A DNA stretch of 36,603 nt, taken from a virus. Below, in pieces: positions 1,901-33,815 of the stretch (the first letter of the stretch is position 1; the number at the start of each line of letters is the position of its first letter). The position numbers and the translations under genes were made by a program. The stretch lies in IMG/VR virus record IMGVR_UViG_3300046737_000089; one strand, written 5' to 3'. The notes under the pieces are model-generated. The model saw only the letters and a program-made list of their open reading frames with translations. It did not search any database and had not been told where the DNA came from.

Positions 1901-2283
1901 TATTTAACTACCTTTGGTCGACCACGTTTCTTTACTTCGCTTCTTGGCGACCGAGTCCCATTCCCTTCTCTGGCATTTTCCTCTCGGGTGCTGTGCATCG
2001 AGAAGTCGGGGTTATGTTGTTCGTATCTGGGTTCTTCCCGCTCACTGGACGTTTCGGGTTGGTTGCTACAAATCCGCTGCCTTGGTTTTTCATAAGTTAA
2101 TACCTCTTCATTTGGCAAATAGTTAGTTTTATCAAACCATTTACCCGTTTTTAATAATATGATTGCGTCATTGTAGGAACACGTTTTAAATAGTCCGCCA
2201 CAATAAAGCTTATAAACACGCTTCAAGCGCGCAATGTCTGCGCGCTCGTTCGTGTCAAATAGATAGTGCGAGTGCAACATCAT
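1900..2283 (-). CDS. Hypothetical protein with Arg/Glu-rich basic C-terminus
   Basis: 127-aa ORF packed between the coat and adaptor genes with overlapping stops and starts. Confidence 0.5.
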   Translation of the reverse strand: MMLHSHYLFDTNERADIARLKRVYKLYCGGLFKTCSYNDAIILLKTGKWFDKTNYLPNEEVLTYEKPRQRICSNQPETSSEREEPRYEQHNPDFSMHSTREENAREGNGTRSPRSEVKKRGRPKVVK

Positions 2284-4653: not shown

Positions 4654-4890
4654 ATGAACTTTGAAGACAATAAATGGTTAAGAATAGATGAAGTAGTTCG
4701 GTTTACTCGATTAAGTATAACAACGATATATCGGCGAGGAGATAACGGCACTTTCCCCCAAAGAGTTAAAGTTAATAAAATTAATCGATGGGTAGCATCT
4801 GAAGTATACGAGTGGATAAAAAGAAAGCCCGTACATTCAAGTCATGATGAATGGATTATGCCACAGCTTCTTGTTCATCTGGCTCTTTAG
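4654..4890 (+). CDS. alpA: AlpA/Xis-family helix-turn-helix protein (start moved to MNFEDNKW...)
   Basis: LRIDEVVRFTRLSITTIYRRGDNGTFPQRVKVNKINRWVASEVYEWI matches the Phage_AlpA pattern. The upstream part of tracked ORF 4546.. is AT-rich leader. Confidence 0.7.
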   Translation: MNFEDNKWLRIDEVVRFTRLSITTIYRRGDNGTFPQRVKVNKINRWVASEVYEWIKRKPVHSSHDEWIMPQLLVHLAL

Positions 4891-7171
4891 GGCGTAGCGG
4901 TTGCTGAGTAAGGTTATGGATATGCTTTATGGTTTCGAAATGCTTGTCTGAAACATCGGCATGAGCAGCTGCAATCTTAGCTGCGCTCTCAACCATAGCC
5001 GCCTTATAATCGAGTCCGCCACGTTGTAAGTCAGCATAAGCGCGTATTTTAGATGATTGCGCTTCAATCATGGCTTGACTCATTTTAACCTGATTTAGTT
5101 CACGTTTAGCTTTGACATCGTCCTGCGCACCCTGCAATTTTGCCATCTGTATTTGCTGTTCTGGATTTGGTGGTGGCGGCGGTGCTGGTGGTGGTGGCGG
5201 TTTACCTTCCGATTTAGCCAATACATCTGGCGGAACTAACGTTTTTAAACGATTCACTAATTCAATGTTATCTTCAATATCAATATTTTTAGCGATGATA
5301 TCTGCGATTAATGGAAGCATTTGCGGAGAAGTTTGCGCTAGCTGTATCAAAACTTGTAATGCTTCTTCTTTTTGTGCAGCATAATTTGCGCCTGCAGTAA
5401 TCTTAATATCAAACTCACCTTTACTTAGGTCGTTTGACATTCCATTAGCAATCTTCTTATTAACAGTAATCTGTTTGGATTTTCCATCAACGCCTTGCGC
5501 AGATAAAACGCGCTCGGTGTCATAAACTTGCGGTAGCATTGATAATATAACTCGTCCTATTTGTTCTTGCGCTATTTTCAGGTTATCAAAGAAAACAAGG
5601 TTTGAAGAATTGCCAATTTTTTGTTGTTCACGAATTGCCTTTCCAGATAATTGACCAAAGGCGCGTCCATCATTCATTTCTTGGGGATAGCCAATAATGC
5701 TGCGCAAGTCTTTATCGGCTTGCTGCATGTTCATTAATAATGTTTGCGGCAATTCAGGAACAGGTAATCGAATCGGTTCTTTTTGTGTTCTGTCATCGGG
5801 TTTATAGAGTAATACGCCCGCTTGGTTTGCCGGGTTTTTCCATAAAAGTTCATAGCCTTGAATATTACTTGGAGTAGCTAAGAACTGTTCGCGCCGATTG
5901 TTCTTTGCTGCTTGAGCAGTATCACTCGCCAAGAAATTTAAAAATCTTTGAGGGTCTTTAGCATAAGTAACCAACGATGTAATCGTGGTCTTTCCCTCGA
6001 TAACTATTTCATCACCCATGACAGCAGCAAATGGAAAATGCTTGCTGGGCCATTCGTAGGTCTCAATAATATGCCCGGCAATCGCTTTATAACAAATGAT
6101 TTTATAATCACGCGAACGACGTTTGCTTACTATTGTAGGCATTACATCTACGCCAGCCATCATCGGAGGCGCAGCAGGAGTTTGTGGTGGCATTTCCGGA
6201 ATTCCGGAAGGCGGCATCATTCCTGGTTGTTGTGGCGGCATACCAGGGTTTTGAGGTTGCATAGGTTGTTCGGGAGGCGGTGGTGGCGCATTAGCAATCA
6301 TCGATTGCATTTCTTCTTCTTGATATATTTGACGTCCACTCGCAATTCCTTGCGCTGCTTCTGCTTCGGCTTCTTCTGGTTGCTCTAACGCTTTTTTACG
6401 TTTGTTATAATCTTTCTTACTAATTTCTTCGCCATTACTGAGCTGATATAAAGTAAAGTTATACCATTGCTTTTCATAATATTCACAAATAGTAATGCCT
6501 TTAATATCGCCCCAATTAAAATATTCAGTGTTATAGCTTGCAGGAAAAGACTGCGGATAAGGGATGTCTGGGTATTTTTCTTCAAAGTCATCACGATTCA
6601 TTGTGTCGTAACGAAACATGAAATTGCCGTCTGTCTTCGTCATAGATGTAGCGTTTGGATCCCAACCTACCCTATCAGAATATTTCTCAGCTTCGATAAA
6701 AATATCTTGCTTAAATGATTTAGGCGAAATGTAATCAGTGCGTACGCGAATAAATCCCATACCACCACTTACAGCATTAGCAAATGCTGTTTGATAAGCA
6801 ATGTCAGCTTTCGATCGATATTCAATCCCACGGATAATATCGGCACGTAATGTAATATCTTCTTGTGAGCCAATACCATTTAAAGAACTAACTTCTAAAT
6901 TACAGGTGTTATAACGTTGCTCGCCAATAAGCTTACGATAATAATCATAGAGTTTATTGTAAGTGAAGATTGGTTTATTTAAGGCTTGGAAAGCTTGGCG
7001 TTCGAAAAGAGTCCATTGATCGTAAAATAAAAAACGACGGTCTACGCGGCTACGATTAATATTATGTTGATTAAACCTAAAATAACGATTAACGTTTTTA
7101 TAAATGCGATCGAGAATAGCGTTATCGCCCGTATCACTACCAAAAGCACCGATGTTGTAGGAATCTGCCAT
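4856..7171 (-). CDS. Portal protein (large, with a P22-like long C-terminal helical region and Pro/Gln-rich insertions)
   Basis: 771 aa immediately downstream of the large terminase; size and position fit, with a helical C-terminal tail. Confidence 0.85.
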   Translation of the reverse strand: MADSYNIGAFGSDTGDNAILDRIYKNVNRYFRFNQHNINRSRVDRRFLFYDQWTLFERQAFQALNKPIFTYNKLYDYYRKLIGEQRYNTCNLEVSSLNGIGSQEDITLRADIIRGIEYRSKADIAYQTAFANAVSGGMGFIRVRTDYISPKSFKQDIFIEAEKYSDRVGWDPNATSMTKTDGNFMFRYDTMNRDDFEEKYPDIPYPQSFPASYNTEYFNWGDIKGITICEYYEKQWYNFTLYQLSNGEEISKKDYNKRKKALEQPEEAEAEAAQGIASGRQIYQEEEMQSMIANAPPPPPEQPMQPQNPGMPPQQPGMMPPSGIPEMPPQTPAAPPMMAGVDVMPTIVSKRRSRDYKIICYKAIAGHIIETYEWPSKHFPFAAVMGDEIVIEGKTTITSLVTYAKDPQRFLNFLASDTAQAAKNNRREQFLATPSNIQGYELLWKNPANQAGVLLYKPDDRTQKEPIRLPVPELPQTLLMNMQQADKDLRSIIGYPQEMNDGRAFGQLSGKAIREQQKIGNSSNLVFFDNLKIAQEQIGRVILSMLPQVYDTERVLSAQGVDGKSKQITVNKKIANGMSNDLSKGEFDIKITAGANYAAQKEEALQVLIQLAQTSPQMLPLIADIIAKNIDIEDNIELVNRLKTLVPPDVLAKSEGKPPPPPAPPPPPNPEQQIQMAKLQGAQDDVKAKRELNQVKMSQAMIEAQSSKIRAYADLQRGGLDYKAAMVESAAKIAAAHADVSDKHFETIKHIHNLTQQPLRPKEPDEQEAVA

Positions 7172-7174
7172 TCT

Positions 7175-8731
7175 CTAAATTCTAATATTAGGGTTGTATA
7201 TATTACCTATATTAGCATTGTTTCTTAAAGCAGGGAAGGCAAAAGTTAAAGCAAGCGCGTCGCCCTCGTCCGGACTCCGGACACCTCGAGCACGCATTCT
7301 ATCTTTACTTTCTAATGTGACGCGCCCGAGTGAATCTGCATCATAAAATGGAGCGCATAAATCAGAATGTAACGAATCGCTATCAGGAATTGATACAGGG
7401 ACTTCTTTTAACCAATCACCCATTAATGACCATATCTCAGCACGTTTGTTTGCGTATCTATCCTCCTGTAAAGCTACACCTCCAAAGTTAACTGCCTTAA
7501 CTATCTGACCATGACCAAGTTCACGCAAGCGGTCAATAATACCTACGCCAAGACCTGTTACATCAATACAAATAAAATCTGGCTGTTCTGTTTTAATTAA
7601 ATTAATTAATATGCCGACTGTTTGCATCGTATCTTTATTTTGATAGCTTTGGAGACCATAGGCAACGCGCCCTTGGCGAATAATAATAGATGTTCTGTCA
7701 CGATGTGAACCCATATTTTCTGGGTCACCACCTGCTGGATCCACACCTATAAATTTAACCCCAGAAGCACCAACAGTACATTTCCTGGCTTTTTCAACAG
7801 ACAAGCTGGAAATAATGCAATTGCCACCCGTAACAATAAATGCTTCTTCTGCTGTTGAAGGATATTCTTGCTTAAAACCAAGCTCTTTAAGTTGACTACT
7901 GTTAGTCGTAATGCGGCGCCAATGCATCTGCTCGTTATCTAGATTATAAAGCTTCTTATATTCGTGCTCTTCATCAGTTAATGCAAAGTATCCTGGGTCA
8001 CCTACTTTAAGCCCTACAGGTAATGGCTCTCTATATTCATCGCTCCAATACCAAGGAATAAATACGGGTAGAAATTCATTTTCACCACGATTAGCTTCAT
8101 CCCATAAATTATAAAAGATGTTACCTTTACCTTGTGCAGTACTTTCAAGGATGACTTCTGTATTTGCTATCCTAGGGATTGCTTGCATAATGCCATCTAA
8201 ATGTTGTATGCCGTTCTCCCATAAACCTACTTCTGAACCATGAAACAACTGGATTGTATTCGAGCGCCCAATGCCTTTACTGCCTGCTGTGCCTACTTTA
8301 TAACCTGATTCTGGAGAAAGGAAATTAAGTTCTTTAGAACTGTTCGCGCCTTCAATCGGACGAACAAACAAAGGACAGTAAGTATGGTAACGCTTTACCA
8401 TCTCAAATAGATTATCTGTTGCTCTTTGCTCATGAGTAAGAATAAATGCACGATAACCTGTTCTATGTGAAACAATATGATAAAATCGACCGCCAACATA
8501 AGTAGAAATGCCTTGCTGCCTGCCTTTCAAAATAATAACGCGAACACGTCCTGTTTTTTTTCTTTGCTCTTCTATTTTGGAATGTAAATAAAGTTGTGGT
8601 TTATTAAGTGCGAACGGAAGGATTTCGCCAGGTTTCGTCCGAATCATCAAGCATTTGTAGGCATAATGCGGGAAGTTATTTTTTAGTTTTAGTCTTAATT
8701 GAATTTCTCTTTCTGTCATTACTACTGACAT
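7175..8731 (-). CDS. terL: Terminase large subunit
   Basis: 518 aa with a Walker-A-like ILKGRQQGIST and a C-terminal nuclease-type region (FIGVDPAGG...DVTGLGVG...DEGDALAL), upstream of the portal. Confidence 0.9.
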   Translation of the reverse strand: MSVVMTEREIQLRLKLKNNFPHYAYKCLMIRTKPGEILPFALNKPQLYLHSKIEEQRKKTGRVRVIILKGRQQGISTYVGGRFYHIVSHRTGYRAFILTHEQRATDNLFEMVKRYHTYCPLFVRPIEGANSSKELNFLSPESGYKVGTAGSKGIGRSNTIQLFHGSEVGLWENGIQHLDGIMQAIPRIANTEVILESTAQGKGNIFYNLWDEANRGENEFLPVFIPWYWSDEYREPLPVGLKVGDPGYFALTDEEHEYKKLYNLDNEQMHWRRITTNSSQLKELGFKQEYPSTAEEAFIVTGGNCIISSLSVEKARKCTVGASGVKFIGVDPAGGDPENMGSHRDRTSIIIRQGRVAYGLQSYQNKDTMQTVGILINLIKTEQPDFICIDVTGLGVGIIDRLRELGHGQIVKAVNFGGVALQEDRYANKRAEIWSLMGDWLKEVPVSIPDSDSLHSDLCAPFYDADSLGRVTLESKDRMRARGVRSPDEGDALALTFAFPALRNNANIGNIYNPNIRI

Positions 8732-11050: not shown

Positions 11051-12469
11051 TTAGTTTTGCTTGGCATTCGCTCTCTCCCGAATATCGTTTAAATCACTTT
11101 GATTGTAAAGTTTTCCATCTTCATAGACAACACGAAGCAAGCCGCTTTGCTCTTCTTCGGCTGAGCAATGCTCCTTTGTAGAAATAATGTCGTCTTTGTT
11201 TTCTAAGCATAGTAAACCTTGATGAGATTTCTTTTTTGCATCTGTGATTGGGTCTTTAACGATATCAAATGGCTTTCCATGTCTTTCACCATAAGTTGCT
11301 TTAAATGTAATTCCCAAATCATCTCTATTATGTTGTTGTAATAACAAGCCGCCCAGGCCAATGACAAGATTTGATGCGGCATAGTCCATCGCGTGCATGT
11401 CCTGTAATATATGTTTATATCGTTCATAGTACATTCCATCCCCATAAATTAAACCAATCTTTGGGTTTAAAACCTTAAAGCCTTTTGAATTAGTTGTGCT
11501 GCCAAATGTACTGTCTAATAATCTTAAGCAGCCAGTTTTTTCAAATACGTTTGTGCCTTCTTGATTGCCACATATAATCTTATGTGGGTCACCGCTATCT
11601 GGGCGAATAACTACTTTACCATCACGCGCTATTATTTCATCTTTAAGTTGCGGCAATATGTTTACGAGCACTTTCCATAAGTTGTAACTATCAGCAACGA
11701 TGCTAAGAATGCCGGTAGGATACAATTTAAGCATAGCTCGAAAGGCATCGATTTCATTTTCTTTTCCATAAGCGCACATAACACTATGCTCACTAGCTGG
11801 CACGCTATACCCAGAGATACCGTCAGCCATATAGTATTGATCGAGCAGCTTAACGGCGGGAACTGTATCAGTACCGAGAAAATTACATAAGTGAGCGGCT
11901 CCAGAAAGTGCCGCTGTTTCTTCAGAAGAACAACCCCGATAACCAAAGTCATGAAGCATAAAAGGAATTGGACTTGTATCGTCACATGTCATCTCCACAA
12001 ACTTTGTAATTAGCTTTTTCATTTCATAGCTATATGTAGCCACACTAATTGTGTTCCAAACTTTCAGTAATAATGATTCGACGTAACCGACTAACCAATA
12101 AAAATCAGGATGAGTATTAGTAATTGTCATCAATACATTTTTAACAGGCAATACCATTCCTTCAGGCACAGCTTTAATCTTTAATGGTAGATAACCTAAT
12201 TTATACAAGTTCAAAAATGCCGCTACTAGAGAAGATGGACAACTGCCTAATATTTGTTTTCGATAATGCACAGCTTCTTGTATGTCTTCGTAGCTGATTG
12301 GATTTAAATACTGCTTCAAATAATATTGCAATCCAAAAAACATTTGTTCTTTGTATTTATGGTCACTGCGCGATATTAAATAGGAATAAACTTTATTCAT
12401 GCCTTCTGGATATTGTTCGATGTGACCGAATTTATAAGCGTCTGTCATTAATAATAGATTATTGTTCAT
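11051..12469 (-). CDS. nadV: Nicotinamide phosphoribosyltransferase family protein (NAMPT/NadV-like); candidate nicotinamide ADPR-transferase (Namat) of a NARP1-type pair
   Basis: 472 aa with NAMPT-family signatures: LMTDAYKFGH, HDFGYRG, SVPASEHSV, ADSYN, VIRPDSGDP, GLIYGDG. Confidence 0.9.
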   Translation of the reverse strand: MNNNLLLMTDAYKFGHIEQYPEGMNKVYSYLISRSDHKYKEQMFFGLQYYLKQYLNPISYEDIQEAVHYRKQILGSCPSSLVAAFLNLYKLGYLPLKIKAVPEGMVLPVKNVLMTITNTHPDFYWLVGYVESLLLKVWNTISVATYSYEMKKLITKFVEMTCDDTSPIPFMLHDFGYRGCSSEETAALSGAAHLCNFLGTDTVPAVKLLDQYYMADGISGYSVPASEHSVMCAYGKENEIDAFRAMLKLYPTGILSIVADSYNLWKVLVNILPQLKDEIIARDGKVVIRPDSGDPHKIICGNQEGTNVFEKTGCLRLLDSTFGSTTNSKGFKVLNPKIGLIYGDGMYYERYKHILQDMHAMDYAASNLVIGLGGLLLQQHNRDDLGITFKATYGERHGKPFDIVKDPITDAKKKSHQGLLCLENKDDIISTKEHCSAEEEQSGLLRVVYEDGKLYNQSDLNDIRERANAKQN

Positions 12470-13256
12470 TGATTATTTTCTCGTAAAAACTTTCATAGTT
12501 ATAAGACCGAATTTGAGTTATTCCAGCATCTACCAGCGGCGCAGTTCCTTTGCTAAATATCCCATGCGTTATATAAAGGGCAATTTTAGATACTTCACGT
12601 TCTTTTAATTGCTTTGCTATTTCTATAAATGTTGCGCCACCATCACAAATGTCATCAACTATTAATATACGTTTGTTTTTAAAATCAACATAATTAGGCA
12701 ATGTAATTGAATTAATCTTTCCGGTTGTTTGGTCGCGGTCTTTTAGGCACTGCGCAGCTTTAGCGGGAGTCGCTTCGTAGTAACGTTCAAATGCTCCGAA
12801 ATCAGGTAATAACATTAAGTTGCTATTGGTTTCTTCAAAAAGATATTTAATTTCATCATAAGGAATGTAGTTAATGACTTTTGCGTCTATATAGAAATAA
12901 GAACGCTCAGAATGCACATCTAAAGTATGGACTACGTCTTCATTGGTAGAAAAATCATTAAATAATGACTGGAAACATATAGACGCGAAACAAGTATGAT
13001 TCCTTATATATTTATCCTGCCTAGCATAGGGAAGATAAGGAATTATATAGATAATCGGGTGCATAATTAAGTCAGCTAATTGACCAAGCCAAATCAATTC
13101 TGCTTCTTGCTCAAACACCCAATAAACATAAACTTTATCAGTATCTTTTAAATCATCAATATACGGCACTTTCCAAACCTGGCTTGTTTTATCTGGAAAT
13201 ATCGTTGGCTTAATTTCAATACGCTCATGTTCATTAACTTTTAAATAAATTGCCAT
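12459..13256 (-). CDS. Ribose-phosphate pyrophosphokinase (PRPP synthetase)-like protein; candidate ADPR-pyrophosphate synthetase (Adps) of a NARP1-type pair
   Basis: 265 aa with the PRTase/PRPP loop RILIVDDICDGGATFIE and LDVHSE (compare Prs DLHA/S). Overlaps the NAMPT-like gene by 11 nt. Confidence 0.8.
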   Translation of the reverse strand: MAIYLKVNEHERIEIKPTIFPDKTSQVWKVPYIDDLKDTDKVYVYWVFEQEAELIWLGQLADLIMHPIIYIIPYLPYARQDKYIRNHTCFASICFQSLFNDFSTNEDVVHTLDVHSERSYFYIDAKVINYIPYDEIKYLFEETNSNLMLLPDFGAFERYYEATPAKAAQCLKDRDQTTGKINSITLPNYVDFKNKRILIVDDICDGGATFIEIAKQLKEREVSKIALYITHGIFSKGTAPLVDAGITQIRSYNYESFYEKIINEQ

Positions 13257-14863: not shown

Positions 14864-15039
14864 GATTCCAATTCCTCTATGCACATTATCTCAGTTATAT
14901 TTCTTTCTACACACTCATCAATTTTTACGTGACTCTGTGCGGCACGGAATGCATCTTTGAAAGATTCGGCTTCTACATAAATTAAAGACTGCGGATATCT
15001 ATCTCCTTTTTTTCCAAATAGGATTTTATAAGTCTTCAC
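14860..15039 (-). CDS. Hypothetical 59-aa protein (VKTYKILFGKKGDRYPQSLIYVEAESFKDAF...), GTG start, below the track cutoff
   Basis: My own translation; GTGA overlap with the terS stop, preceded by GAGGAA. Confidence 0.45.
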   Translation of the reverse strand: MKTYKILFGKKGDRYPQSLIYVEAESFKDAFRAAQSHVKIDECVERNITEIMCIEELES

Positions 15040-15422
15040 TCCAATTCCTCAATCTGCTTTTGTCTGTCCTGATGGTCTTTAACAATATCAATCTTATGTT
15101 CATTCTCATGAAGTAATTGTAAATGTCGTGCTAAAAGTTCATTTGCTTTTAATTTTGTTGGCATGAATTTTTCATTTTCATGCTCTGCAATATTTTTAAT
15201 ATTATTTAAAACATATTCTGCAGTTATCCCTAGTTTTTCAGCTTCTTTACTCATAATTTTTTCTATTTTTAACTTAATTTGAGGTTTATTGAGGTTCTCA
15301 TATGCCATCTCTCCAGATGTCTTTTTACTGTATCCAGCTTTAATTGCTGACTGCATTCCATTGCCTGTTTTTATATATTCTCTGACAAATCTTTTTTGCT
15401 TAAGAGTTAATTTCTTTTCCAT
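15036..15422 (-). CDS. terS: Terminase small subunit (Terminase_2-type)
   Basis: LTLKQKRFVREYIKTGNGMQSAIKAGYSKKTSGEMAYENLNKPQIKLKIEKI is a close match to the conserved TerS N-terminal HTH pattern. Confidence 0.85.
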   Translation of the reverse strand: MEKKLTLKQKRFVREYIKTGNGMQSAIKAGYSKKTSGEMAYENLNKPQIKLKIEKIMSKEAEKLGITAEYVLNNIKNIAEHENEKFMPTKLKANELLARHLQLLHENEHKIDIVKDHQDRQKQIEELE

Positions 15423-15972: not shown

Positions 15973-16159
15973 TGTTTTCTCGTTTAATTACATCGTAATC
16001 TTTCAATGCATTAAAAAGTTCTTCTGTTATTTCTTTTGTTCCCAATAAAAAACCACGCTTAAAATATTCATCGCCTTCAATCTTGCCATGATATCGTTGT
16101 TCTAAAATAACACGGCAATTATTGAGTAAACTTTTAAGCTTTAAATCTTCAGGTTTCAT
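15962..16159 (-). CDS. Hypothetical protein
   Basis: 65-aa ORF in the track. Confidence 0.45.
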   Translation of the reverse strand: MKPEDLKLKSLLNNCRVILEQRYHGKIEGDEYFKRGFLLGTKEITEELFNALKDYDVIKRENNDT

Positions 16160-16656
16160 AATTGTGACCGTGCAATTTCTATTAACCGTTTGTCCGCTTT
16201 CGTTAAAACATCTAACAATAAACGCTTTTCTTCTAAATAAACTTTAGCAAATTTCGGGTCGTGATAAACAATAGACCCAGTATTACTAATTAAATCCGCA
16301 ACTTTAATTGTTTGAACATATGCGTCGCAGCCACTTAATCTTTCACGTGAGATTTTTTTTCGCGTCTCTCTATTTCCTTCTGCTAAATCAGACAACAACT
16401 CTACCGCTCTGGCAATTAAATAGCTAAATTTTTCTTCCAATTCTCTAAAATGAATGCCGCAATCTTCCATGCAATCATGGAGCCATCCTATTGCTTGCCA
16501 TTCATCAATAGTTATTCCAAAATCTGGATTAAAAACAGATAATGAAATTCCAACTACTTCAGCTAAATGCTCAAAATAAGGATTATGCGTATATTTACGC
16601 CGCTGCTCTTTATGAACGTCTCTAGCAAAAACCATAGCTTTATATGCAATATCCAT
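16156..16656 (-). CDS. HD-domain RelA/SpoT-type hydrolase (small alarmone hydrolase, SAH/Mesh1-like)
   Basis: FARDVHKEQRRKYTHNPYFEHLAEV...AIGWLHDCMEDCGIHFRELEEKF...TIKVADLISN follows the (p)ppGpp-hydrolase HD motif order. At 166 aa it is a single domain with no synthetase. Confidence 0.85.
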   Translation of the reverse strand: MDIAYKAMVFARDVHKEQRRKYTHNPYFEHLAEVVGISLSVFNPDFGITIDEWQAIGWLHDCMEDCGIHFRELEEKFSYLIARAVELLSDLAEGNRETRKKISRERLSGCDAYVQTIKVADLISNTGSIVYHDPKFAKVYLEEKRLLLDVLTKADKRLIEIARSQL

Positions 16657-17739: not shown

Positions 17740-17828
17740 GCTCTCTATTCACTTTATCAAATAAAAGTCGCGTGGAGGGCGACGCTCTCCTGATATCTAA
17801 TATCTACCCACGAATAGAAAGCAAAATT

Positions 17829-17984
17829 CTAAATATTCAAACTATCTTTAACAGGCATAGACGCTTCTCGCCATGCATACGACTTACACTTAGGGCACGC
17901 AATAGGCTCAGCTTTTCTAGGAACCCATACCCAAAGACATCGAGCGCATTTTACGTTATCTACTTTCGTTGCTGTTTTTTTCAT
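17829..17984 (-). CDS. 51-aa zinc-ribbon protein (MKKTATKVDNVKCARCLWVWVPRKAEPIACPKCKSYAWREASMPVKDSLNI), below the track cutoff
   Basis: My own translation. CxxC-x16-CxxC with conserved-looking W/R spacing; overlaps the rsr 3' end by 29 nt. Confidence 0.5.
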   Translation of the reverse strand: MKKTATKVDNVKCARCLWVWVPRKAEPIACPKCKSYAWREASMPVKDSLNI

Positions 17985-19272
17985 GCTCTATAATAAACCT
18001 AAATATATTTTCACTAAAACCGCTTATGTGAATACCTTTATTATAAGCTATTCCGTTCTTATAAGAAGCAACATTAATAATATAATTCTCAATCCTACGT
18101 TTAAGCAAAACGTTATCTGCGTTCTGTTCATCTGTAATAATAATAAGCCGGTCATAAGGAAAGCTTTTATGCAGTGCATTAACAGCAGCGCCTAAATACG
18201 TTCCTCCATTCGACTGACTGTGCATAATGTTTTTTATCAGTGAGAAATTATTTACCGCAGCTACTTCAACAAACGATTCAGAAAATGTGAAAATTCTTAC
18301 ATCTTCAAAATAATTTACTGCCAATAATGCTAACGCACCTGCAGCGTCCATTCGAGTTACTTCAGACTTACCAGACAACCTATCATTCATCGACCCTGAA
18401 ACATCAACTAACACTACCGTTTTTCCGTTCAATTTCTCAAATTTACTTTTCAAAAAAGCCTTTTCTAAAGCAACTGTATATTGGGGCGCATGAACAGCAG
18501 CGGTTATTAATCTAAATGGCAATACTCTTTCAAAATTCGCAACATCAAAATAGGATTCAATCAACTCATTAGATACACCAGCAGCATACATATTACGAAG
18601 GTTTCTAATAAATGCTAATGCACCTAATTTATTTTCTGTCATCAATCGTTCAAATGTTTCTTTCTTATTTGCGCCTGATGATAATGCAACTTCCCATGTG
18701 TCAGGACTTTCTAATTCATTATTAGCAAGCTTTTTCCATATTACCGCTTGCTCTTCATTGTCTGGTTTTGGATGTACTAAAAACATTACATCCCGTAATT
18801 TAATTGCTTTCGACTGATTATTATATTTAGCTAATTGATAAGCATTAAAGTGTGTAAATGCTAATCCCAGTCCTTTTTTCACTTGATTAGGAATTGGTTT
18901 TTTACCATCTTTCCAATAAATCGCTAAAAATTCAGTGATTTCATCAGGGCGAGCAATAATCCTTTCTAACGCGTGAGCCATTCCAGCATATTTTTTTTCA
19001 ACTAAGATTACTAATAACAACAGAGGAACATGACGTAAGTGCATTGCATGACGCGCGCCGAGAGCTAGTAAATAAATGTGTTCATTATCTACTTTCTGAC
19101 ATAACTCAACTAATCTAGACGCATGGTCTTGACCGTTTTCATAGAATGATTTTTCCCACAAAAAACAGCTCATCACTGAACGTTCAAGTTCTTGCAATGG
19201 AGATATCTTAGATGCCCTACCGCCTTCATGCGTAGTTATTAACTCAGGGATAGAATGATTAATTGAAGCCAT
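17956..19272 (-). CDS. rsr: Ro60/Rsr orthologue (TROVE domain plus vWA/MIDAS domain)
   Basis: Collinear matches to Ro60 as I recall it: CFLWEKSFYENG, KLRDVMFLVHPKP, LGALAFIRNLRNM, VLPFRLITA, VVLVDVSGSMN (MIDAS DxSxS), GGTYLG, LIIITDEQ. Confidence 0.9.
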   Translation of the reverse strand: MASINHSIPELITTHEGGRASKISPLQELERSVMSCFLWEKSFYENGQDHASRLVELCQKVDNEHIYLLALGARHAMHLRHVPLLLLVILVEKKYAGMAHALERIIARPDEITEFLAIYWKDGKKPIPNQVKKGLGLAFTHFNAYQLAKYNNQSKAIKLRDVMFLVHPKPDNEEQAVIWKKLANNELESPDTWEVALSSGANKKETFERLMTENKLGALAFIRNLRNMYAAGVSNELIESYFDVANFERVLPFRLITAAVHAPQYTVALEKAFLKSKFEKLNGKTVVLVDVSGSMNDRLSGKSEVTRMDAAGALALLAVNYFEDVRIFTFSESFVEVAAVNNFSLIKNIMHSQSNGGTYLGAAVNALHKSFPYDRLIIITDEQNADNVLLKRRIENYIINVASYKNGIAYNKGIHISGFSENIFRFIIEHEKNSNESR

Positions 19273-19293
19273 ATTTTTCTCACTTTTATTAAT

Positions 19294-19380
19294 GCTTTAT
19301 CAGCTATGACAGAACAAAAATAACAGCGTGTTTTCACCGATTGAAGTAGCCGTTATTACACTAGTCATAGCTGATAAAGC
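19294..19380 (-). ncRNA. Y-RNA-like module C: 17-bp perfect outer stem, conserved internal loop (TAGTGT / TTTGTTCT), 8-bp inner stem, small apical hairpin; ends 21 nt before the rsr ATG
   Basis: gctttatcagctatgac (19380..19364) pairs with gtcatagctgataaagc (19310..19294); aataacgg pairs with ctgttatt. Confidence 0.6.
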
Positions 19381-19386
19381 ACTTAG

Positions 19387-19524
19387 AGATGCTACAGAAC
19401 AAGCGATACACTTATTTTTCGTGCTCTACCAACTGAGCTACCACTCGTTACCGAATGAGATGGACTCGAACCACCGACCACGTCATTACAAGTGAAGTAA
19501 GTGTATCTATCACTAGCAGCATCT
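19387..19524 (-). ncRNA. Y-RNA-like module B (YrlA-type): interrupted long stem enclosing a circularly permuted tRNA-like domain
   Basis: Minus strand: agatgctgc/gtagcatct (9 bp) and gatacactta/taagtgtatc (10 bp) flank an internal loop. Inside are T-arm GGTGG-TTCGAGT-CCATC, a 7-bp acceptor-like stem TCATTCG-GTAA-CGAGTGG closed by a GNRA loop, and a canonical D-arm TA-GCTC-AGTTGGTA-GAGC. Confidence 0.7.
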
Positions 19525-19536
19525 TTAAATACTTTG

Positions 19537-19646
19537 TAAAGTATTGCAGAACAACTAATAAACTCATTTGCCCACCCGGGCCAACCTGAAATTCAGGTAG
19601 TTTGGATTCGAACCGAAGTAAGTATATTAACACTAACAATACTTTA
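19537..19646 (-). ncRNA. Y-RNA-like module A: interrupted long stem enclosing a second, more degenerate permuted tRNA-like domain; begins at the predicted transcription start
   Basis: taaagtattg/caatacttta (10 bp) and taatatact/agtttatta (9 bp, one mismatch) flank the same internal loop. Inside are GG-TTCGAAT-CC T-loop, hairpin acctga-att-tcaggt and mini D-arm GCCC-GGGT-GGGC. Confidence 0.6.
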
Positions 19647-19653
19647 CCTCCTC

Positions 19654-19682
19654 ATAATAATAATAATAATAAACTTTGTCAA
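19654..19682 (-). promoter_or_regulatory. Sigma70-type promoter TTGACA-N17-TATTAT driving the Y-RNA modules and rsr
   Basis: -35 TTGACA at 19682..19677, exact 17-nt spacer, -10 TATTAT at 19659..19654. Near-identical to the promoter at 22572..22600. Confidence 0.65.
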
Positions 19683-20496: not shown

Positions 20497-20771
20497 AACG
20501 TATTAAACCTTTTTAGATTCCTGCGTAAATAAATAGACCGTGGATTGTATAGTTTTCCTTTCAGAATTAAATGATTTTCAAACATCAATTTATTTTCATA
20601 TTTTTCAGTAAGCCGCCTTTGCTTTTTCATAAGATTCTCATCAGAAAAACGCCCATTAATTTCATCTTGTTCTCTGCGTTCTTTAAAGCCCTCCATAATG
20701 GATTGGTGATATTTAATCACGTCCTCTTTGTTCTTTTTATTAAATTTAAAAAATCTGTCCCAAAAACTCAT
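20493..20771 (-). CDS. Hypothetical basic protein
   Basis: 92-aa ORF with 4-nt overlaps. Confidence 0.5.
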   Translation of the reverse strand: MSFWDRFFKFNKKNKEDVIKYHQSIMEGFKERREQDEINGRFSDENLMKKQRRLTEKYENKLMFENHLILKGKLYNPRSIYLRRNLKRFNTL

Positions 20772-21211
20772 AACGAAAACCCACTTAAAAAATCTGCCAT
20801 CGGTCTATCGCAAATAGTCCTTGCGTATGTCTTCGCTGACATAATTCTAAAATCAATCAAACCACCTTTCACAATTTTATTAATCCGGATTGTGTGGTCG
20901 TCGCATATTTGATAATCATCACTAAAAAGTCCTGCGTACTGCAATGAATCAAATAACGCTTTTTTTATGTTATCCATGTCACGCTTGCGTTTATCCGGAG
21001 GATAGATAATTATCTCCACCATTAAATCGCCATCCATGGGCATTCCGTCCCACTTTTCACCCTTACCAATGCATTGCCAAAGGGTAGCCCTCAAAAGTTG
21101 CCTGTATGCCCTTCCTTGGGCGCTAATAACGATTCTATTCTGCCACTTCTTGTAGTAGTTATTAATCGTGGGTGGATATGGCAAATTAAATTGCAGCATT
21201 TTAGTTAACAT
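20768..21211 (-). CDS. rusA: RusA-family Holliday junction resolvase
   Basis: LPYPPTINNYY..., DMDNIKKALFDSLQYAGLFSDDYQI is the RusA catalytic Asp motif; 147 aa. Confidence 0.85.
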   Translation of the reverse strand: MLTKMLQFNLPYPPTINNYYKKWQNRIVISAQGRAYRQLLRATLWQCIGKGEKWDGMPMDGDLMVEIIIYPPDKRKRDMDNIKKALFDSLQYAGLFSDDYQICDDHTIRINKIVKGGLIDFRIMSAKTYARTICDRPMADFLSGFSL

Positions 21212-30798: not shown

Positions 30799-32418
30799 CT
30801 ATAATTTAACATAGAGCCAAAAATAAGCTGTTGGCTGTATATTATTGTGCGCAAGTCCACCGCCCGTAGTGCCGGAAAACGCTAATCCATCAACAGGATG
30901 AATGAGTATTGCTCCTGATGAAGCAAGGAAATTAATAGGGTTAGGTATTGTATGATCATGCGCAGGCATTTCAGGAATTGTTAAGACATGTTCATTTTCC
31001 CCTGCGAATGTCCCAAATGGGGTCGCTGTCCCAGTCCCAGCACTTGCCAATACACGATTAATTATGCTGACTGGTATAGTCATTTGTTTGTTAGCAAAAA
31101 AATCAGCAGTCGGTGACACGCCGCGACCGCCATTAACTGCACATTCTGTTTGATCAAACAACGTCCACCATAAGATATAAAGATTTACGAATCTTTCGCC
31201 AAATGTGGTTGCGCCACTTGCTGATTGATATCCTATCGTTTGAAGAACATTATAAAGTAGCAGCCATCCTCTGAATTGTTCAGGCAAACCTGGATCTCCA
31301 TTTAAACTAAACCGGAGCGCGCCTGTTTCAAAAATAATATTGCTATAACTTAATAAATCGATAAGTACTTTATATTGGTCTTGATTATAAGTTTGATAAA
31401 TATAAGGCGCAGCGCCAAAAGTACCGCGTTGTACTTGTAAATTTGTTATATCGAAACTGCCCAATGTATTTAATGGAAAGCTCCATAAAACATTGATGCT
31501 ATCATCTCGATTCGGGCCTTTACTTTTTCCTACTACAGAAGGAACAACAACAGTAAAAGATTGTCTTGCCCATGCGCCCACTGAAAAATTAAAATTATGA
31601 GTTACTGCACTATCAGCTGAACCACCCGTCCCAAAAAATTGCAATATTTCAAAAACACCAACTCCGGCTGCGTCTGAATGAGTATCAAAAGAAATGGTAA
31701 GCGTTTCTCCTGAAAATGTTTCTACATTTGGGATAGTTTGAGATAAAAAAGCATCTGTCTGAGGAGCGCCGGCAACGGACAATTGATATTGGAAAAAGCG
31801 CGTTGCATTTTCACTAGGAGAATTTGGAAACCCTTCGCCAATTCCTACAACATCCACAAACGCTATAGTACTCGTTTCACCAGCACCCCCTGATTTAACA
31901 AAGTTCCATCCAGATTTAAAATTACTGCCTGTTGGAGTAGGCGTAAAATGTCCATCAATATCTTGGAAAAAACCAGCCGCTGGCGCAAGTCGTGTCATCC
32001 CCGCTGGAATTGGGCTTATAACAGATTCACCCGATGTTAGTGCATCAATAAATATAAATGCGCCGTTCACAATGTGATTTTCAATATCAACATTGGTATT
32101 GATAGGAGTAACGCCGCCTGTTCCTGGTGGAAAATTATCTATTGTACAAATTATATTTCCTGCTGCATCTTTAATTACAACGTAATATAAATCGACACCA
32201 TTATTTTCAAAATACATGGGAACGGGGCTTCCTCCTGTTCCGTCTAAAATAATAGGGTCAAGATAAGGAAAATTGCCTGCTGCATCAGCAAATATAAATT
32301 TTGGTGTAGAGTGGTCTAAGCTGCTAAACGTTGTTATTGAACCACCGGCAGCAGGACGACCCTGTGAATCTAAGAAATACCATTTCGGGCTAGGAGCTAT
32401 ATTAAATGTTGACGGCAT
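30799..32418 (-). CDS. Tail fibre with a C-terminal phage tail-collar domain (start MPSTFNIAPSPKWYFLD...)
   Basis: N-terminus PKWYFLDSQGRPAAGGSITTF is typical of podovirus fibres. C-terminus NEHVLTIPEMPAHDHTIP...GGGLAHNNIQPTAYFWLYVKL is the collar motif. The ATG at 32418 has an AAGG Shine-Dalgarno and avoids overlap with the upstream gene. Confidence 0.75.
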   Translation of the reverse strand: MPSTFNIAPSPKWYFLDSQGRPAAGGSITTFSSLDHSTPKFIFADAAGNFPYLDPIILDGTGGSPVPMYFENNGVDLYYVVIKDAAGNIICTIDNFPPGTGGVTPINTNVDIENHIVNGAFIFIDALTSGESVISPIPAGMTRLAPAAGFFQDIDGHFTPTPTGSNFKSGWNFVKSGGAGETSTIAFVDVVGIGEGFPNSPSENATRFFQYQLSVAGAPQTDAFLSQTIPNVETFSGETLTISFDTHSDAAGVGVFEILQFFGTGGSADSAVTHNFNFSVGAWARQSFTVVVPSVVGKSKGPNRDDSINVLWSFPLNTLGSFDITNLQVQRGTFGAAPYIYQTYNQDQYKVLIDLLSYSNIIFETGALRFSLNGDPGLPEQFRGWLLLYNVLQTIGYQSASGATTFGERFVNLYILWWTLFDQTECAVNGGRGVSPTADFFANKQMTIPVSIINRVLASAGTGTATPFGTFAGENEHVLTIPEMPAHDHTIPNPINFLASSGAILIHPVDGLAFSGTTGGGLAHNNIQPTAYFWLYVKL

Positions 32419-32429
32419 AATTTTACCTT

Positions 32430-33815
32430 TTAAAAAATTCTTCTGGCACCTTCTGCGCCTATGACGGCTGGAATACCGATTCCTGCTGCCCATTTAAGTT
32501 TACTTTGACGCGATAAATCATTCATAATGGATCCAATCTTAGCTATTGATTCGGGCGTCCTTAAAAAATCAAGTCCTTTATTATCAAGATTTCCATATTC
32601 GTTCACTAAACTTTTAGCGTCTGCTTCACGCTGCAAAATTCCTTTTTTAGGAAGCGCTTTAAGGGCTGCTTTTAATTGAGTACCTAATAATAAATTTTTG
32701 GATTCATCGGATAAATTATTTCTAATGGATGTAGTCGCCGTATCATTTTTACTTAAAAGATTTCCAATAGTTTTAGGGTTTATTTGCGATAGTCCTTTTT
32801 TTAAAACAATATTTCTAAGTGTTGTATTTGATAAATAAGGCGCGACTACTTTTTTATAATCTTGTCCTATTGAGTTATATTTATTTAATAAATCTGTGTC
32901 GCCATTTTTAGTCAATGTGTCTGAGATATCATTTTTAAGAGAACTTCTTAAATTTAATAATTGACCGCCTAGTTTTCTGTTGTCGCTATCTTTATTGCTG
33001 CGTAATTTATCGCCTTCACTTCCTAAAGTAGATTGCAAGTCATGGGCTTTTTCAAAACTTGGATTTTCTTTGAAATCGTCGATAGCCTCATTAATATCAT
33101 TGCTATGTTTTGATAAATCTATTTTATCTAAGACGCTTTCAAAATTATTTGGAATTATTGATTTTTCATCAGTCGCAACCGATATTCCAGGAAATTGTTT
33201 AGCTACAGTTGGTGCGTAACCTCTATCTGCGGCTTCAGATTTAATGGCACTATATTGATTATTAAAATCACTTTTGGCAGCCGTATATTTATTTCTTATT
33301 TCATCAGCAACAGGCTTAGTCGCCTCTGAAACGCTGTTACCTTGTAATAAATCATTCATAAAGCTTTTAGCTTTTTGATTTGCTGCTAGTCCTAATTTAT
33401 TCTGTAAAGTTGATAATAATTTTTTACCTCCAGTACTAACTAATTTTGCTAAGTCTGTCGCAGGCGTTGCAAGCTCTGCTCCGGTTGCTAAGCCACGGGC
33501 TAGTGGATCTAATTCTTGTTGTCTTTGTTGTGAAACTTCAGGCATCGGGAAAGCTTGAGGATTGAATGGCTGAGGCGTTGGCACATTTTCTGGCTTTACT
33601 CCAAACAATCCTGCGACTTTTTGATTAGCATAATTTGCAGCTTCAATAGGTACATTTAAAACGTCTCCTATGCCATACCCAATGGCCCTCCCTGCAGTAC
33701 CGCCCGCTTGTAAAATATCTTGAAGAATTCCAGATTTTTCAGGAGAAGATTTTGGCTTGAACCCTAATCCATCATCTTGAGTTTTTTCCACAAAACCTAA
33801 ATTATCATCTGCCAT
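32430..33815 (-). CDS. Internal virion / ejection protein (putative)
   Basis: 461 aa in the position of the P22 ejection proteins; Gly-rich ends. Confidence 0.5.
   Translation of the reverse strand: MADDNLGFVEKTQDDGLGFKPKSSPEKSGILQDILQAGGTAGRAIGYGIGDVLNVPIEAANYANQKVAGLFGVKPENVPTPQPFNPQAFPMPEVSQQRQQELDPLARGLATGAELATPATDLAKLVSTGGKKLLSTLQNKLGLAANQKAKSFMNDLLQGNSVSEATKPVADEIRNKYTAAKSDFNNQYSAIKSEAADRGYAPTVAKQFPGISVATDEKSIIPNNFESVLDKIDLSKHSNDINEAIDDFKENPSFEKAHDLQSTLGSEGDKLRSNKDSDNRKLGGQLLNLRSSLKNDISDTLTKNGDTDLLNKYNSIGQDYKKVVAPYLSNTTLRNIVLKKGLSQINPKTIGNLLSKNDTATTSIRNNLSDESKNLLLGTQLKAALKALPKKGILQREADAKSLVNEYGNLDNKGLDFLRTPESIAKIGSIMNDLSRQSKLKWAAGIGIPAVIGAEGARRIF

What the first reader, a model, noticed from the sequence alone, without database searches (positions are those of the whole stretch)
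17956..19682. Phage-encoded Ro60/Rsr with three tandem Y-RNA-like modules behind a consensus promoter
The 438-aa protein is collinear with Ro60: TROVE motifs plus a vWA MIDAS (DVSGSMN ... GGT ... TDEQ).

Immediately upstream on the same strand, with no plausible coding capacity, lie three consecutive structured RNA modules: 19646..19537, 19524..19387 and 19380..19294. Each is built as a long outer stem, an asymmetric internal loop, an inner stem and an apical domain.

- In two modules the apical domain is a tRNA mimic in circularly permuted order: T-arm, then an acceptor-like stem closed by a loop, then a D-arm.
- Module B is very clean: GGTGG-TTCGAGT-CCATC / TCATTCG-GTAA-CGAGTGG / TA-GCTC-AGTTGGTA-GAGC.
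- As I recall, this is the architecture described for bacterial YrlA Y RNAs, which are encoded next to rsr and tether Rsr to exoribonucleases.

A TTGACA-N17-TATTAT promoter (19682..19654) places the transcription start at the first base of module A. A podovirus carrying a complete Ro RNP (protein plus a three-member Y-RNA array) is unusual. It suggests RNA quality control, RNA-repair hijacking or counter-defence against RNA-targeting immunity.
Basis: partly seen in the sequence, partly recalled or inferred. Interest (0 to 1): 0.85.

Follow-up and report, generated by a model that had tools for sequence, protein, structure and literature searches.

The report
Phage Ro60-like protein with three Y RNAs
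This phage carries a ring-shaped Ro60-type RNA-binding protein gene preceded by three small structured RNAs. The arrangement is not a rarity: it is the standard layout of a very widespread, divergent and apparently uncatalogued branch of the known Ro60/Y-RNA system.

Summary

**Protein.** ORF 17956..19272(-) is a TROVE + vWA(MIDAS) protein.
- Its predicted fold matches only Ro60-family structures at the top of the list. The closest is phiRo60 of Thermus phage phiLo.
- It is a short (~435 aa) clade, not an Rsr equivalog.

**RNA modules.** Three tandem modules lie between a near-consensus promoter and the start codon: A 19647..19536, B 19524..19387, C 19380..19294. All three share one grammar:
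- variable outer stem
- bulged U
- two pairs (R-G/C-Y)
- asymmetric loop (5' YG.A / 3' G.UURUU)
- inner stem of fixed length
- UACUUC
- variable apical part

**Evidence from relatives.**
- A covariance model built from relatives found 164 copies next to TROVE genes in 467 kb. All lie on the gene's strand.
- 70 of 80 viral loci carry a copy, usually in arrays of 1-4.
- Covariation is strong: 90% of cells paired against 53% when shuffled.

**Apical parts.**
- Module B is a YrlA-type tRNA mimic (T arm, acceptor-like stem, D arm). It scores below Rfam's threshold.
- Module A has only a T-loop plus two hairpins.
- Module C is a short hairpin.

**Prior knowledge.** Phage Ro60/Y-RNA pairs have been known since 2014 and 2025.

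**Classification:** new variant of a known kind.

The parts
19654..19682 (-). Sigma-70-type promoter TTGACA-N17-TATTAT. The predicted start falls at about 19647, the first base of module A.
   Evidence: Matches 11 of 12 positions. The same promoter sits in the same place in L013 and L016. Function is inferred, not shown.
19536..19647 (-). Module A. Outer stem of 12 bp (19647..19636 with 19547..19536), then bulged U, A-G/C-U pairs (UAGUG 19635..19631; UGUUCU 19553..19548), inner stem and UACUUC. The apical part has a T-loop (GGUUCGAAUCC) and two hairpins.
   Evidence: Model R1 gives 33.0 bits, E 1.2e-5. The MFE shows the bulged-U helix. No tRNA or YrlA model match. L013 keeps the hairpin through G-U changes.
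19387..19524 (-). Module B, a YrlA-type tRNA mimic. It has the same core (UAGUG 19515..19511; UGUUCU 19401..19396). After UACUUC come a small hairpin, T arm 19475..19459, acceptor-like hairpin 19458..19441, UA and D arm 19438..19423.
   Evidence: Rfam YrlA gives 36.8 bits (gathering score 69), E 1.7e-6, full length; the tRNA model gives 25 bits. Covariation is seen in T arm and acceptor-like stem across 13 relatives.
19294..19380 (-). Module C, short type. 17-bp outer stem, same core (UAGUG 19363..19359; UGUUCU 19316..19311), 9-bp inner stem, UACUUC and a small apical hairpin with a GAAAAC tail.
   Evidence: R1 gives 44.7 bits, E 6e-9. MFE is -36.7 kcal/mol, z -7.5.
17956..19272 (-). Ro60-like protein of 438 aa, with a TROVE/HEAT ring and a vWA domain with MIDAS. 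The start codon lies 21 nt after module C.
   Evidence: Pfam TROVE and vWA_Ro60. PHROG 850. phiLo phiRo60 at E 1e-48 by profile. AF2 pLDDT 84.9. The top 13 Foldseek hits are all Ro60 family.
17829..17984 (-). 51-aa zinc-ribbon ORF (CxxC...CPxCKSY.W) that overlaps the stop of the Ro60-like gene by 29 nt. It may be a clade-specific accessory.
   Evidence: Conserved at the same position in L013-L018 and L210, but in only 5 of 160 broader loci. Only weak zinc-ribbon Pfam hits.
17767..17783 (-). Terminator-like hairpin followed by a T run. It is the likely end of the promoter / Y RNAs / Ro60-like / zinc-ribbon transcription unit.
   Evidence: The scan listed one terminator-like site between promoter and Ro60-like gene on this strand (19339..19324, inside module C's apical hairpin/inner stem; a weak match: 5 pairs, 3 G-C), which I read as part of the module rather than a terminator.

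Best explanation
The locus is one transcription unit: promoter, three Y-RNA-like modules, a Ro60-like (TROVE+vWA) gene, a small zinc-ribbon ORF, then a terminator.

**Proposed mechanism (inferred)**
- The three modules are cut out of the leader of the mRNA.
- Each binds the ring protein through the shared core: a helix with a bulged U and two R-G/C-Y pairs, an asymmetric loop, an inner stem of fixed length, and the UACUUC element.
- The fixed length of the inner stem points to a two-part docking site read as a unit.
- Each module displays a different apical part (T-loop type, full tRNA mimic, short hairpin). Each probably tethers the protein to a different host factor, such as PNPase or enzymes that recognise the tRNA elbow.
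- By analogy with bacterial Rsr/Y RNA/PNPase and phiLo phiRo60/Yrl/PNPase, the RNP would redirect or dampen host RNA decay or repair during infection, possibly as a counter-defence.

**Shown here**
- Protein family and predicted fold.
- RNA structure and covariation.
- Strict genetic linkage and shared strand with the gene.

**Inferred only**
- Expression and processing of the RNAs.
- Protein-RNA binding.
- Host partners and biological role.
For: **Protein**
- TROVE and vWA_Ro60 score above Pfam cut-offs.
- A profile search of PDB gives phiLo phiRo60 at 1e-48, human RO60 at 4e-12, Xenopus Ro60 at 5e-9 and D. radiodurans Rsr at 2e-5.
- The AF2 model has pLDDT 84.9 and pTM 0.79.
- The first 13 Foldseek matches are all Ro60-family, with TMq 0.57-0.71.

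**RNA**
- Model R1, built from 9 short modules, finds 164 matches at E<=1 in 467 kb. All are on the strand of the TROVE gene.
- Of the 123 matches in the 80 sampled viral loci (L139-L218), 116 lie upstream. The nearest copy ends a median of 112 nt before the start codon.
- It finds 48 more matches, again all on the gene's strand, upstream of homologs in bacterial and archaeal assemblies.
- In 880 kb of viral loci pre-selected to contain the sequence motifs, every match at E<0.01 lay in a locus with a TROVE gene within about 350 nt, or (L043) at a contig end.
- Covariation: 90.4% of cells paired against 53.1% shuffled; score 0.898 against 0.216 (0 of 500 shuffles); at most 0.134 when partners are slid.
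- Two pairs that were not in the model's structure covary perfectly: col 11/163 is G-C 92, A-U 36, U-A 1; col 12/162 is G-C 127, C-G 2, U-A 1.
- The tRNA-like domain shows covariation in T arm and acceptor-like stem in a plain MAFFT alignment.
- In crAss-like loci the modules lie downstream of the gene. They are therefore not simply a 5' leader.

**Precedent**
- M. smegmatis YrlA and YrlB lie upstream of rsr and are processed from one precursor (PMC4201824).
- phiLo phiRo60 binds two upstream Yrl RNAs and host PNPase (PMC12135203).
- The Ro60-like gp130 of phage Bas63 counters the Ppl defence system (bioRxiv 10.1101/2024.10.10.617714).
Against: - There are no expression, processing or binding data for this locus or for any member of this clade.
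- The YrlA Rsr-binding motif GNCGAA(N)G is absent, and Rfam's YrlA threshold is not reached.
- R1 finds nothing at the phiLo locus. The only biochemically studied phage relative therefore uses different RNAs, and transfer of its PNPase result is weak: the proteins share 29% identity.
- Alignment A4 was fitted to the model's structure, which inflates the paired percentages.
- No PNPase or RNA-repair gene lies nearby in the window.
Confidence: 0.8

Rival explanations
1. The modules act in cis. They are binding sites in the 5' leader through which the Ro60-like protein autoregulates translation or stability of its own mRNA, and no stable free small RNAs are made.
For: - In most loci the modules lie directly upstream on the same strand.
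- Module C ends 21 nt before the start codon.
- No convincing terminator separates them from the gene; the one listed site on this strand lies inside module C.
Against: - In crAss-like phages, including crAss001, and in Microcystis phage Mvi-JY20 the same modules lie downstream of the gene, often among tRNA genes.
- Arrays of 2-4 different modules, and an elaborate tRNA-like apical domain with covariation, are hard to explain by autoregulation alone.
- M. smegmatis Y RNAs in the same position are processed to free RNAs (PMC4201824).
Confidence: 0.1
2. The tRNA-like module works mainly on its own, as a decoy or substrate for host tRNA-directed enzymes such as anticodon nucleases, modification enzymes or RNase P. 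The protein only stabilises it.
For: - Module B keeps the conserved T-loop and D-loop nucleotides that form the tRNA elbow.
- YrlA is modified by tRNA enzymes and cut by RNase P in M. smegmatis (PMC4201824).
- In crAss-like loci one module encloses a sequence scoring as a true tRNA at 59-63 bits.
Against: - Short-type modules with no tRNA-like part are the most numerous class detected: 104 of 123 matches are 90 nt or shorter, although the model is biased toward them.
- The invariant core shared by all types points to a common protein partner.
- No anticodon-loop conservation was seen.
Confidence: 0.1
3. The region is decayed tRNA genes, or chance hairpins in AT-rich intergenic DNA, with no function linked to the protein.
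For: - ARAGORN finds no tRNA.
- Rfam at gathering scores finds nothing.
- The region is AT-rich, with GC about 0.35.
Against: - Stems covary across loci with 38-91% protein identity.
- Matches share the gene's strand and lie adjacent to it in hundreds of contigs.
- Folding z-scores run from -2.9 to -7.5.
Confidence: 0.02

Closest known systems
YrlA (Rfam RF02553), the bacterial Y RNA encoded next to rsr (Chen et al. 2014, PMC4201824)
   Same: - Modular RNA whose 5' and 3' ends form a long stem with an internal loop.
- A YUAY element (here UUAC) follows the inner stem.
- Then come T arm, acceptor-like hairpin, UA and D arm.
- It is encoded within a few hundred nt of a Ro60 homolog on the same strand.
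- Module B aligns to the whole model.
   Different: - Scores are 36.8 bits here and 32-56 bits in relatives, against a gathering score of 69.
- GNCGAA(N)G is replaced by a bulged U, R-G/C-Y pairs and a YG.A / G.UURUU loop.
- An extra small hairpin lies between UACUUC and the T arm.
- The partner protein is a ~435-aa clade, not an Rsr equivalog.
phiRo60 with Yrl1/Yrl2 of Thermus phage phiLo (PDB 9KOP/9L5Y; PMC12135203)
   Same: - Phage-encoded Ro60 homolog and the closest solved structure (E 1e-48 by profile; TMq 0.71).
- Y-like RNAs lie upstream of the gene.
- It forms complexes with host PNPase.
   Different: - Protein identity is only 29%, and phiRo60 is about 500 aa.
- Its Yrl RNAs were picked by a CGAA motif.
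- Model R1 finds no module at the phiLo locus.
M. smegmatis YrlA/YrlB, S. Typhimurium YrlA/YrlB and D. radiodurans Yrn1/Yrn2
   Same: [quoted passage not shown]
- In M. smegmatis both lie upstream of rsr and come from one precursor (PMC4201824).
- This matches the A/B/C array here.
   Different: - Three to four modules per array are frequent here.
- All modules here share one strict core, which the bacterial YrlB and Yrn2 RNAs were not reported to share.
Metazoan Y RNA bound by Ro60 (Xenopus structure 1YVP)
   Same: The terminal stem carries a conserved helix with a single bulged pyrimidine. Ro60 reads this helix on its outer surface.
   Different: - The sequence differs: GGUCCGA/UUGAC against U-RG...CY with UUGUU.
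- Metazoan Y RNAs have no tRNA-like domain.
- The similarity in binding mode is inferred only.
Phage Bas63 gp130, a Ro60-like protein that counters the Ppl defence (bioRxiv 10.1101/2024.10.10.617714)
   Same: It is a phage Ro60-like protein encoded next to tRNA-like genes, with a measured counter-defence phenotype.
   Different: Its similarity to Ro60 was reported by structure only. I did not test whether it belongs to this clade or has these modules.

Membership tests
Ro60 / TROVE protein family | TROVE domain followed by a Ro60-type vWA domain | tested here: met
   Pfam TROVE scores 55.2 bits (cut-off 23). vWA_Ro60 scores 33.8 bits (cut-off 27.7).
Ro60 / TROVE protein family | MIDAS motif (DxSxS ... 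T ... D) in the vWA domain | tested here: met
   DVSGS, GGT and TDEQ are in the sequence. They are invariant in 20 homologs.
Ro60 / TROVE protein family | Ring of HEAT-like helices closed by the vWA domain | tested here: met
   The AF2 model has pLDDT 84.9. The Foldseek top 13 are all Ro60-family chains, with TMq 0.57-0.71 over the whole length. This is a prediction, not a solved structure.
Rsr (bacterial Ro60 ortholog, NCBIfam NF041674 equivalog) | Score above the curated equivalog cut-off | tested here: not met
   21.9 bits against a cut-off of 900. Only the vWA part matches.
Ro60 / TROVE protein family | Binds Y RNA on the outer surface and misfolded RNA ends in the central hole | not testable with these tools
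   This needs EMSA or pull-down experiments.
YrlA (RF02553) | Reaches Rfam's gathering score | tested here: not met
   Module B scores 36.8 against 69. Relatives score 32-56. Nothing is found at the gathering threshold.
YrlA (RF02553) | T arm, acceptor-like stem-loop and D arm in that order, with conserved tRNA elbow nucleotides | tested here: met
   Met for module B only. The T arm is 98.5% paired with 3 covarying pairs. The acceptor-like stem is 90.9% paired with 5 covarying pairs. The D stem is invariant. Not met for A or C.
YrlA (RF02553) | GNCGAA(N0-1)G motif near the 5' end (the proposed Rsr site) | tested here: not met
   The 5' strands read (Y)UAGUG here and UGGUG in most relatives.
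YrlA (RF02553) | Encoded within 4 kb of the Ro60 homolog on the same strand | tested here: met
   All three modules lie within 375 nt upstream on the same strand. The same holds family-wide.
Y RNA (generic) | 5' and 3' ends pair into a long stem that holds a conserved bulged helix | tested here: met
   The bulged U is present in 127 of 130 sequences. It is flanked by covarying pairs.
Y RNA (generic) | Stable small RNA bound by, and dependent on, Ro60 | not testable with these tools
   This needs Northern blots, RNA-seq and co-purification.

The most novel reading that the evidence does not exclude
The three modules belong to a large Y-RNA subfamily that is not catalogued in Rfam 15 and that I did not find described.

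- It has its own docking core: bulged U, R-G/C-Y pairs, an inner stem of fixed length, and UACUUC.
- It carries interchangeable apical parts: short hairpin, T-loop type, full tRNA mimic, and in crAss-like phages an enclosed near-canonical tRNA.
- It always partners a short ~435-aa Ro60 clade. That clade is spread through crAss-like, Xanthomonas, Caulobacter/Brevundimonas jumbo, Rhizobium and cyanobacterial phages, and through many bacterial genomes.

Phages would then carry a plug-in adaptor RNP that couples one ring protein to several host RNA enzymes at once, plausibly as a counter-defence.
Probability: 0.45. Interest if true: 0.65.

Novelty: new variant of a known kind. Interest (0 to 1): 0.5.

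Why it matters
**What is ordinary.** Ro60/Y-RNA particles are known from animals, bacteria and a few phages. This locus on its own is an ordinary member of that kind.

**What the follow-up adds.**
- Most phage and many bacterial Ro60-like genes belong to a short clade.
- The partner RNAs of that clade escape the curated YrlA model.
- No ncRNA was annotated in the eight deposited phage records inspected, including crAss001 and Xanthomonas phage Tenjo.

**What this makes testable.**
- A defined core motif and a working covariance model make these RNAs findable.
- The two conserved elements held a fixed distance apart give a concrete binding hypothesis.
- The modules offer a handle on why so many phages carry this RNP.
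- One phage Ro60-like protein has been reported to counter a defence system, so a role in the phage-host arms race can now be tested in cultured phages.

Tried and rejected
1. **Near relatives among deposited phages.** Megablast of 25 kb found nothing, and blastn of the locus found only a 180-nt crAss TROVE match. Related loci therefore had to come from metagenomes.
2. **Rfam at gathering scores and ARAGORN on the window.** Neither found anything. Only the permissive mode showed the YrlA match.
3. **Exact-pattern scan of viral contigs** with TAGTG..TACTTC..TGTTCT. Most of the 120 stretches were chance matches in coding DNA. Only those with complementary stems were real, and all of those sat by a TROVE gene or at a contig end.
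4. **The strict window motif UAGUG/GUUCU.**
   - It missed most relatives: 7 of 80 viral and 0 of 80 genome loci.
   - The family mostly uses UGGUG/GUUCC.
   - That difference turned out to be a covarying pair.
5. **MAFFT alignment of 18 short modules.** It mixed two registers of the inner stem, so I rebuilt the alignment from the 9 consistent sequences.
6. **R1 with filters off.** It scored A and B poorly because of their long apical inserts. R1 therefore undercounts long modules.
7. **Defence and repair links.**
   - PADLOC models matched neither the protein nor its neighbours.
   - No RtcB, RtcA or PNPase was found among the window ORFs I scanned.
   - So the bacterial rsr-rtcBA operon context does not apply.
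8. **The leader ORF idea.** The 63-aa TTG ORF is broken in L013.
9. **Papers not held.** The 2020 Annual Review on bacterial Ro60 and the supplementary phage list of Chen et al. 2014 were not held. I therefore could not check whether any member of this clade was in their 22 phages.
Full report
**The window.** It is phage DNA. It encodes a major head protein (2280-3506), portal (4856-7171), large terminase (7175-8731), small terminase (15036-15422), RusA (20768-21211) and a tail fibre protein (30799-32493). No deposited phage is close at the DNA level.

**The protein.** ORF 17956..19272(-) encodes 438 aa.
- It matches Pfam TROVE and vWA_Ro60 above their cut-offs and PHROG 850, 'RNA-binding protein'.
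- By sequence the only solved relatives found with phmmer are 9KOP/9L5Y, the Ro60 homolog of Thermus phage phiLo (E 2e-30; paper PMC12135203).
- A profile of the family reaches human RO60 (4e-12), Xenopus Ro60 (5e-9) and D. radiodurans Rsr (2e-5).
- An AlphaFold2 model is confident, with pLDDT 84.9 and pTM 0.79.
- Its 13 best Foldseek matches in the PDB are all Ro60-family chains aligned over the whole length, with TMq 0.57-0.71. Isolated vWA domains follow only after those.
- It is not an Rsr equivalog: NCBIfam NF041674 gives 21.9 bits against a cut-off of 900.
- It belongs to a clade of about 435 aa that is about 100 aa shorter than Ro60/Rsr and is very large. More than 8000 proteins score E<=1e-10. 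At least 564 stretches occur in viral contigs and at least 551 in bacterial or archaeal assemblies.
- Cultured carriers include crAss001, Xanthomonas/Xylella phages (Tenjo, Usme), Caulobacter and Brevundimonas jumbo phages, Rhizobium phages and Microcystis phage Mvi-JY20.

**The RNA region in the window.** The 375 nt between the promoter and the start codon fold into three separate long hairpins (z -6.2). Individually they give z -2.9, -3.5 and -7.5. All three have the same plan:
- An outer stem: 12 bp in A, 9 bp in B and 17 bp in C.
- A bulged U.
- Two pairs, A-G with C-U.
- An asymmetric loop.
- An inner stem of about 9 bp.
- UUACUUC (CUACUUC in module C).
- A variable apical part.
- On the way back, the 3' strand UUGUUCU.

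Module B's apical part is T arm, acceptor-like hairpin, UA and D arm. It aligns end to end with Rfam YrlA at 36.8 bits, E 1.7e-6, below the gathering score of 69. Module A has a T-loop sequence on a weak stem and two further hairpins. No tRNA or YrlA model matches it. Module C has a small hairpin only.

The TTGACA-N17-TATTAT promoter (11 of 12) is kept in the 91% and 68% identity relatives L013 and L016. No convincing terminator precedes the gene: the one site listed on this strand (19339..19324) lies inside module C. A terminator-like site follows the small downstream ORF. The only sizeable ORF across the modules (63 aa, TTG start) is cut by a stop codon in L013. The same base change keeps a G-U pair in the RNA hairpin.

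**Related loci.**
- L016 (68% protein identity) also has three modules behind the same promoter, in a different order.
- A regular-expression scan showed the same plan beside TROVE genes in loci with only 38-52% protein identity. The stem sequences there are completely different but still complementary.
- An exact-pattern scan of viral contigs returned mostly chance matches. The few with both stems complementary were each within 350 nt of a TROVE gene or at a contig end.

**A covariance model.** I built R1 from nine short modules.
- In 467 kb (the window plus 98 TROVE loci) it found 164 matches at E<=1. Every one lies on the strand of the TROVE gene.
- Of 80 sampled viral loci, 70 have at least one match among the best 150, and 41 have two to four.
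- 116 of 123 matches are upstream. The nearest copy ends a median of 112 nt before the start codon.
- In the window, C scores 44.7 bits and A 33.0 bits. B is missed because of its long apical insert.
- In 80 loci from bacterial and archaeal assemblies there are 48 further matches at E<=0.01. All are upstream and on the gene's strand.
- As a control I searched 880 kb of viral loci chosen only because they contain the three sequence motifs. Matches at E<0.01 occurred only in the loci with a TROVE gene beside them, or (L043) at a contig end (five of these were training sequences).
- In deposited genomes R1 finds modules in Xanthomonas phage Tenjo, crAss001, Microcystis phage Mvi-JY20, CcrColossus and Rhizobium phage TM30. 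It finds none in phiLo, HGTV-1 or Kabachok.
- None of these records annotates an RNA there.

**Covariation.**
- On the 130 distinct aligned modules, the 16 modelled pairs are 90.4% paired against 53.1% in shuffles. All 16 pairs show double changes. The covariation score is 0.898 against 0.216 shuffled (0 of 500) and at most 0.134 with slid partners.
- This alignment was fitted to the model, which favours the structure.
- Two pairs that were not in the model give an independent test. The second base of U-R-G-Y-G and the last base of GUUC-Y are G-C in 92 sequences, A-U in 36 and U-A in 1, with no exception. The next pair is G-C 127, C-G 2, U-A 1. The window uses the A-U form.
- The U before these pairs is present in 127 of 130 sequences and has no partner, so it is a bulge.
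- UACUUC is nearly invariant (121-130 of 130 per position).
- The number of nucleotides between the two conserved elements is constant in over 95% of sequences. This suggests that one partner reads both elements together.
- For the tRNA-like type I used a plain MAFFT alignment of 13 modules. It gives 91.6% paired against 66.6% shuffled, with three covarying pairs in the T arm, five in the acceptor-like stem and an invariant D stem.
- These long modules reach only 32-56 bits with Rfam YrlA. No Rfam family matches the short type.

**What it most likely is.** This is a Ro60-like RNP operon whose Y-like RNAs are transcribed with the protein gene.
- The closest precedent for the layout is M. smegmatis. 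There YrlA and YrlB lie upstream of rsr, come from one precursor and bind Rsr. In the species studied, one Y RNA is tRNA-like and another is a plain hairpin (PMC4201824).
- The conserved YUAY that follows the stem in YrlA corresponds to UUAC here.
- The docking motif differs. YrlA has GNCGAA(N)G and metazoan Y RNAs have GGUCCGA with a bulged C. This family has a bulged U with R-G/C-Y pairs and a UUGUU strand.
- The function is inferred from relatives. D. radiodurans and Salmonella Y RNAs tether Rsr to PNPase. phiLo phiRo60 and its Yrl RNAs bind host PNPase and slow it (PMC12135203). The Ro60-like gp130 of phage Bas63 counters the Ppl defence.
- The modules lie downstream of the gene in crAss-like phages. 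That argues against a purely cis-acting leader.

**Novelty.** The kind of system is known, and phage examples are published. Three things seem not to be described.
- The distinct core.
- The set of apical types.
- The pairing with the short Ro60 clade.

This rests on Rfam 15 and on the literature I could search. I could not read the 2020 review or the 2014 supplementary tables. I file it as a new variant of a known kind.

Noticed in passing
window 11051-13256 (-): A nicotinamide phosphoribosyltransferase (472 aa, PHROG 448, E 1e-165) sits next to a 265-aa protein with phosphoribosyl-transferase and PRPP-synthetase-associated domains. This is an NAD+ salvage pair of the kind phages use against NAD-depleting defences. 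L016 has the same neighbour.
   Followed up: partly
window 17829-17984 (-): A 51-aa zinc-ribbon ORF (CxxC...CPxCKSYxW) overlaps the stop codon of the Ro60-like gene. It is conserved in the same position in L013-L018 and L210, but in only 5 of 160 more distant loci. It may be a clade-specific partner.
   Followed up: partly
L010 2775-2917, L011 4418-4551, L012 4422-4556 (crAss-like contigs): One module with the usual core (GUAGUG ... UACUUC ... UGUUCU) encloses a sequence that Rfam scores as a real tRNA (59-63 bits; L010 2805-2876, L011 4444-4515, L012 4448-4520). The result is a near-canonical tRNA held inside a Y-RNA stem.
   Followed up: no
L013 2589-2729: In the 91% identity relative, the 3' half of module B (AAUUAGUUUAUUAGUUGUUCU) is the 3' half of module A. 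It no longer pairs with B's own inner 5' strand. This looks like recombination between tandem modules, or a decaying copy.
   Followed up: no
window 16156-16656 (-); L017 2485-2997: An HD_4 (RelA/SpoT-type HD hydrolase) domain protein lies a few genes downstream of the Ro60-like gene, both here and in L017.
   Followed up: no
L009 1548-2072; L010 6-253: A tmRNA (52.5 bits) and a group I intron (85.9 bits) lie near the TROVE gene in crAss-like contigs that also carry tRNA clusters.
   Followed up: no
window 19647-19653 (-): GAGGAGG lies between the -10 box and module A, 7 nt before the TTG of the non-conserved 63-aa ORF. It is probably at or before the transcription start, so it may not be in the RNA at all.
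   Followed up: partly
short-type modules in many loci (alignment A2/A3): After UACUUC, the apical loops of short modules often carry a UUC...GAA mini-helix followed by an A-rich tail (GAAAAC, GAAAUGAAAAAC). This is reminiscent of the CGAA motif used to pick Yrl RNAs in phiLo (PMC12135203).
   Followed up: no
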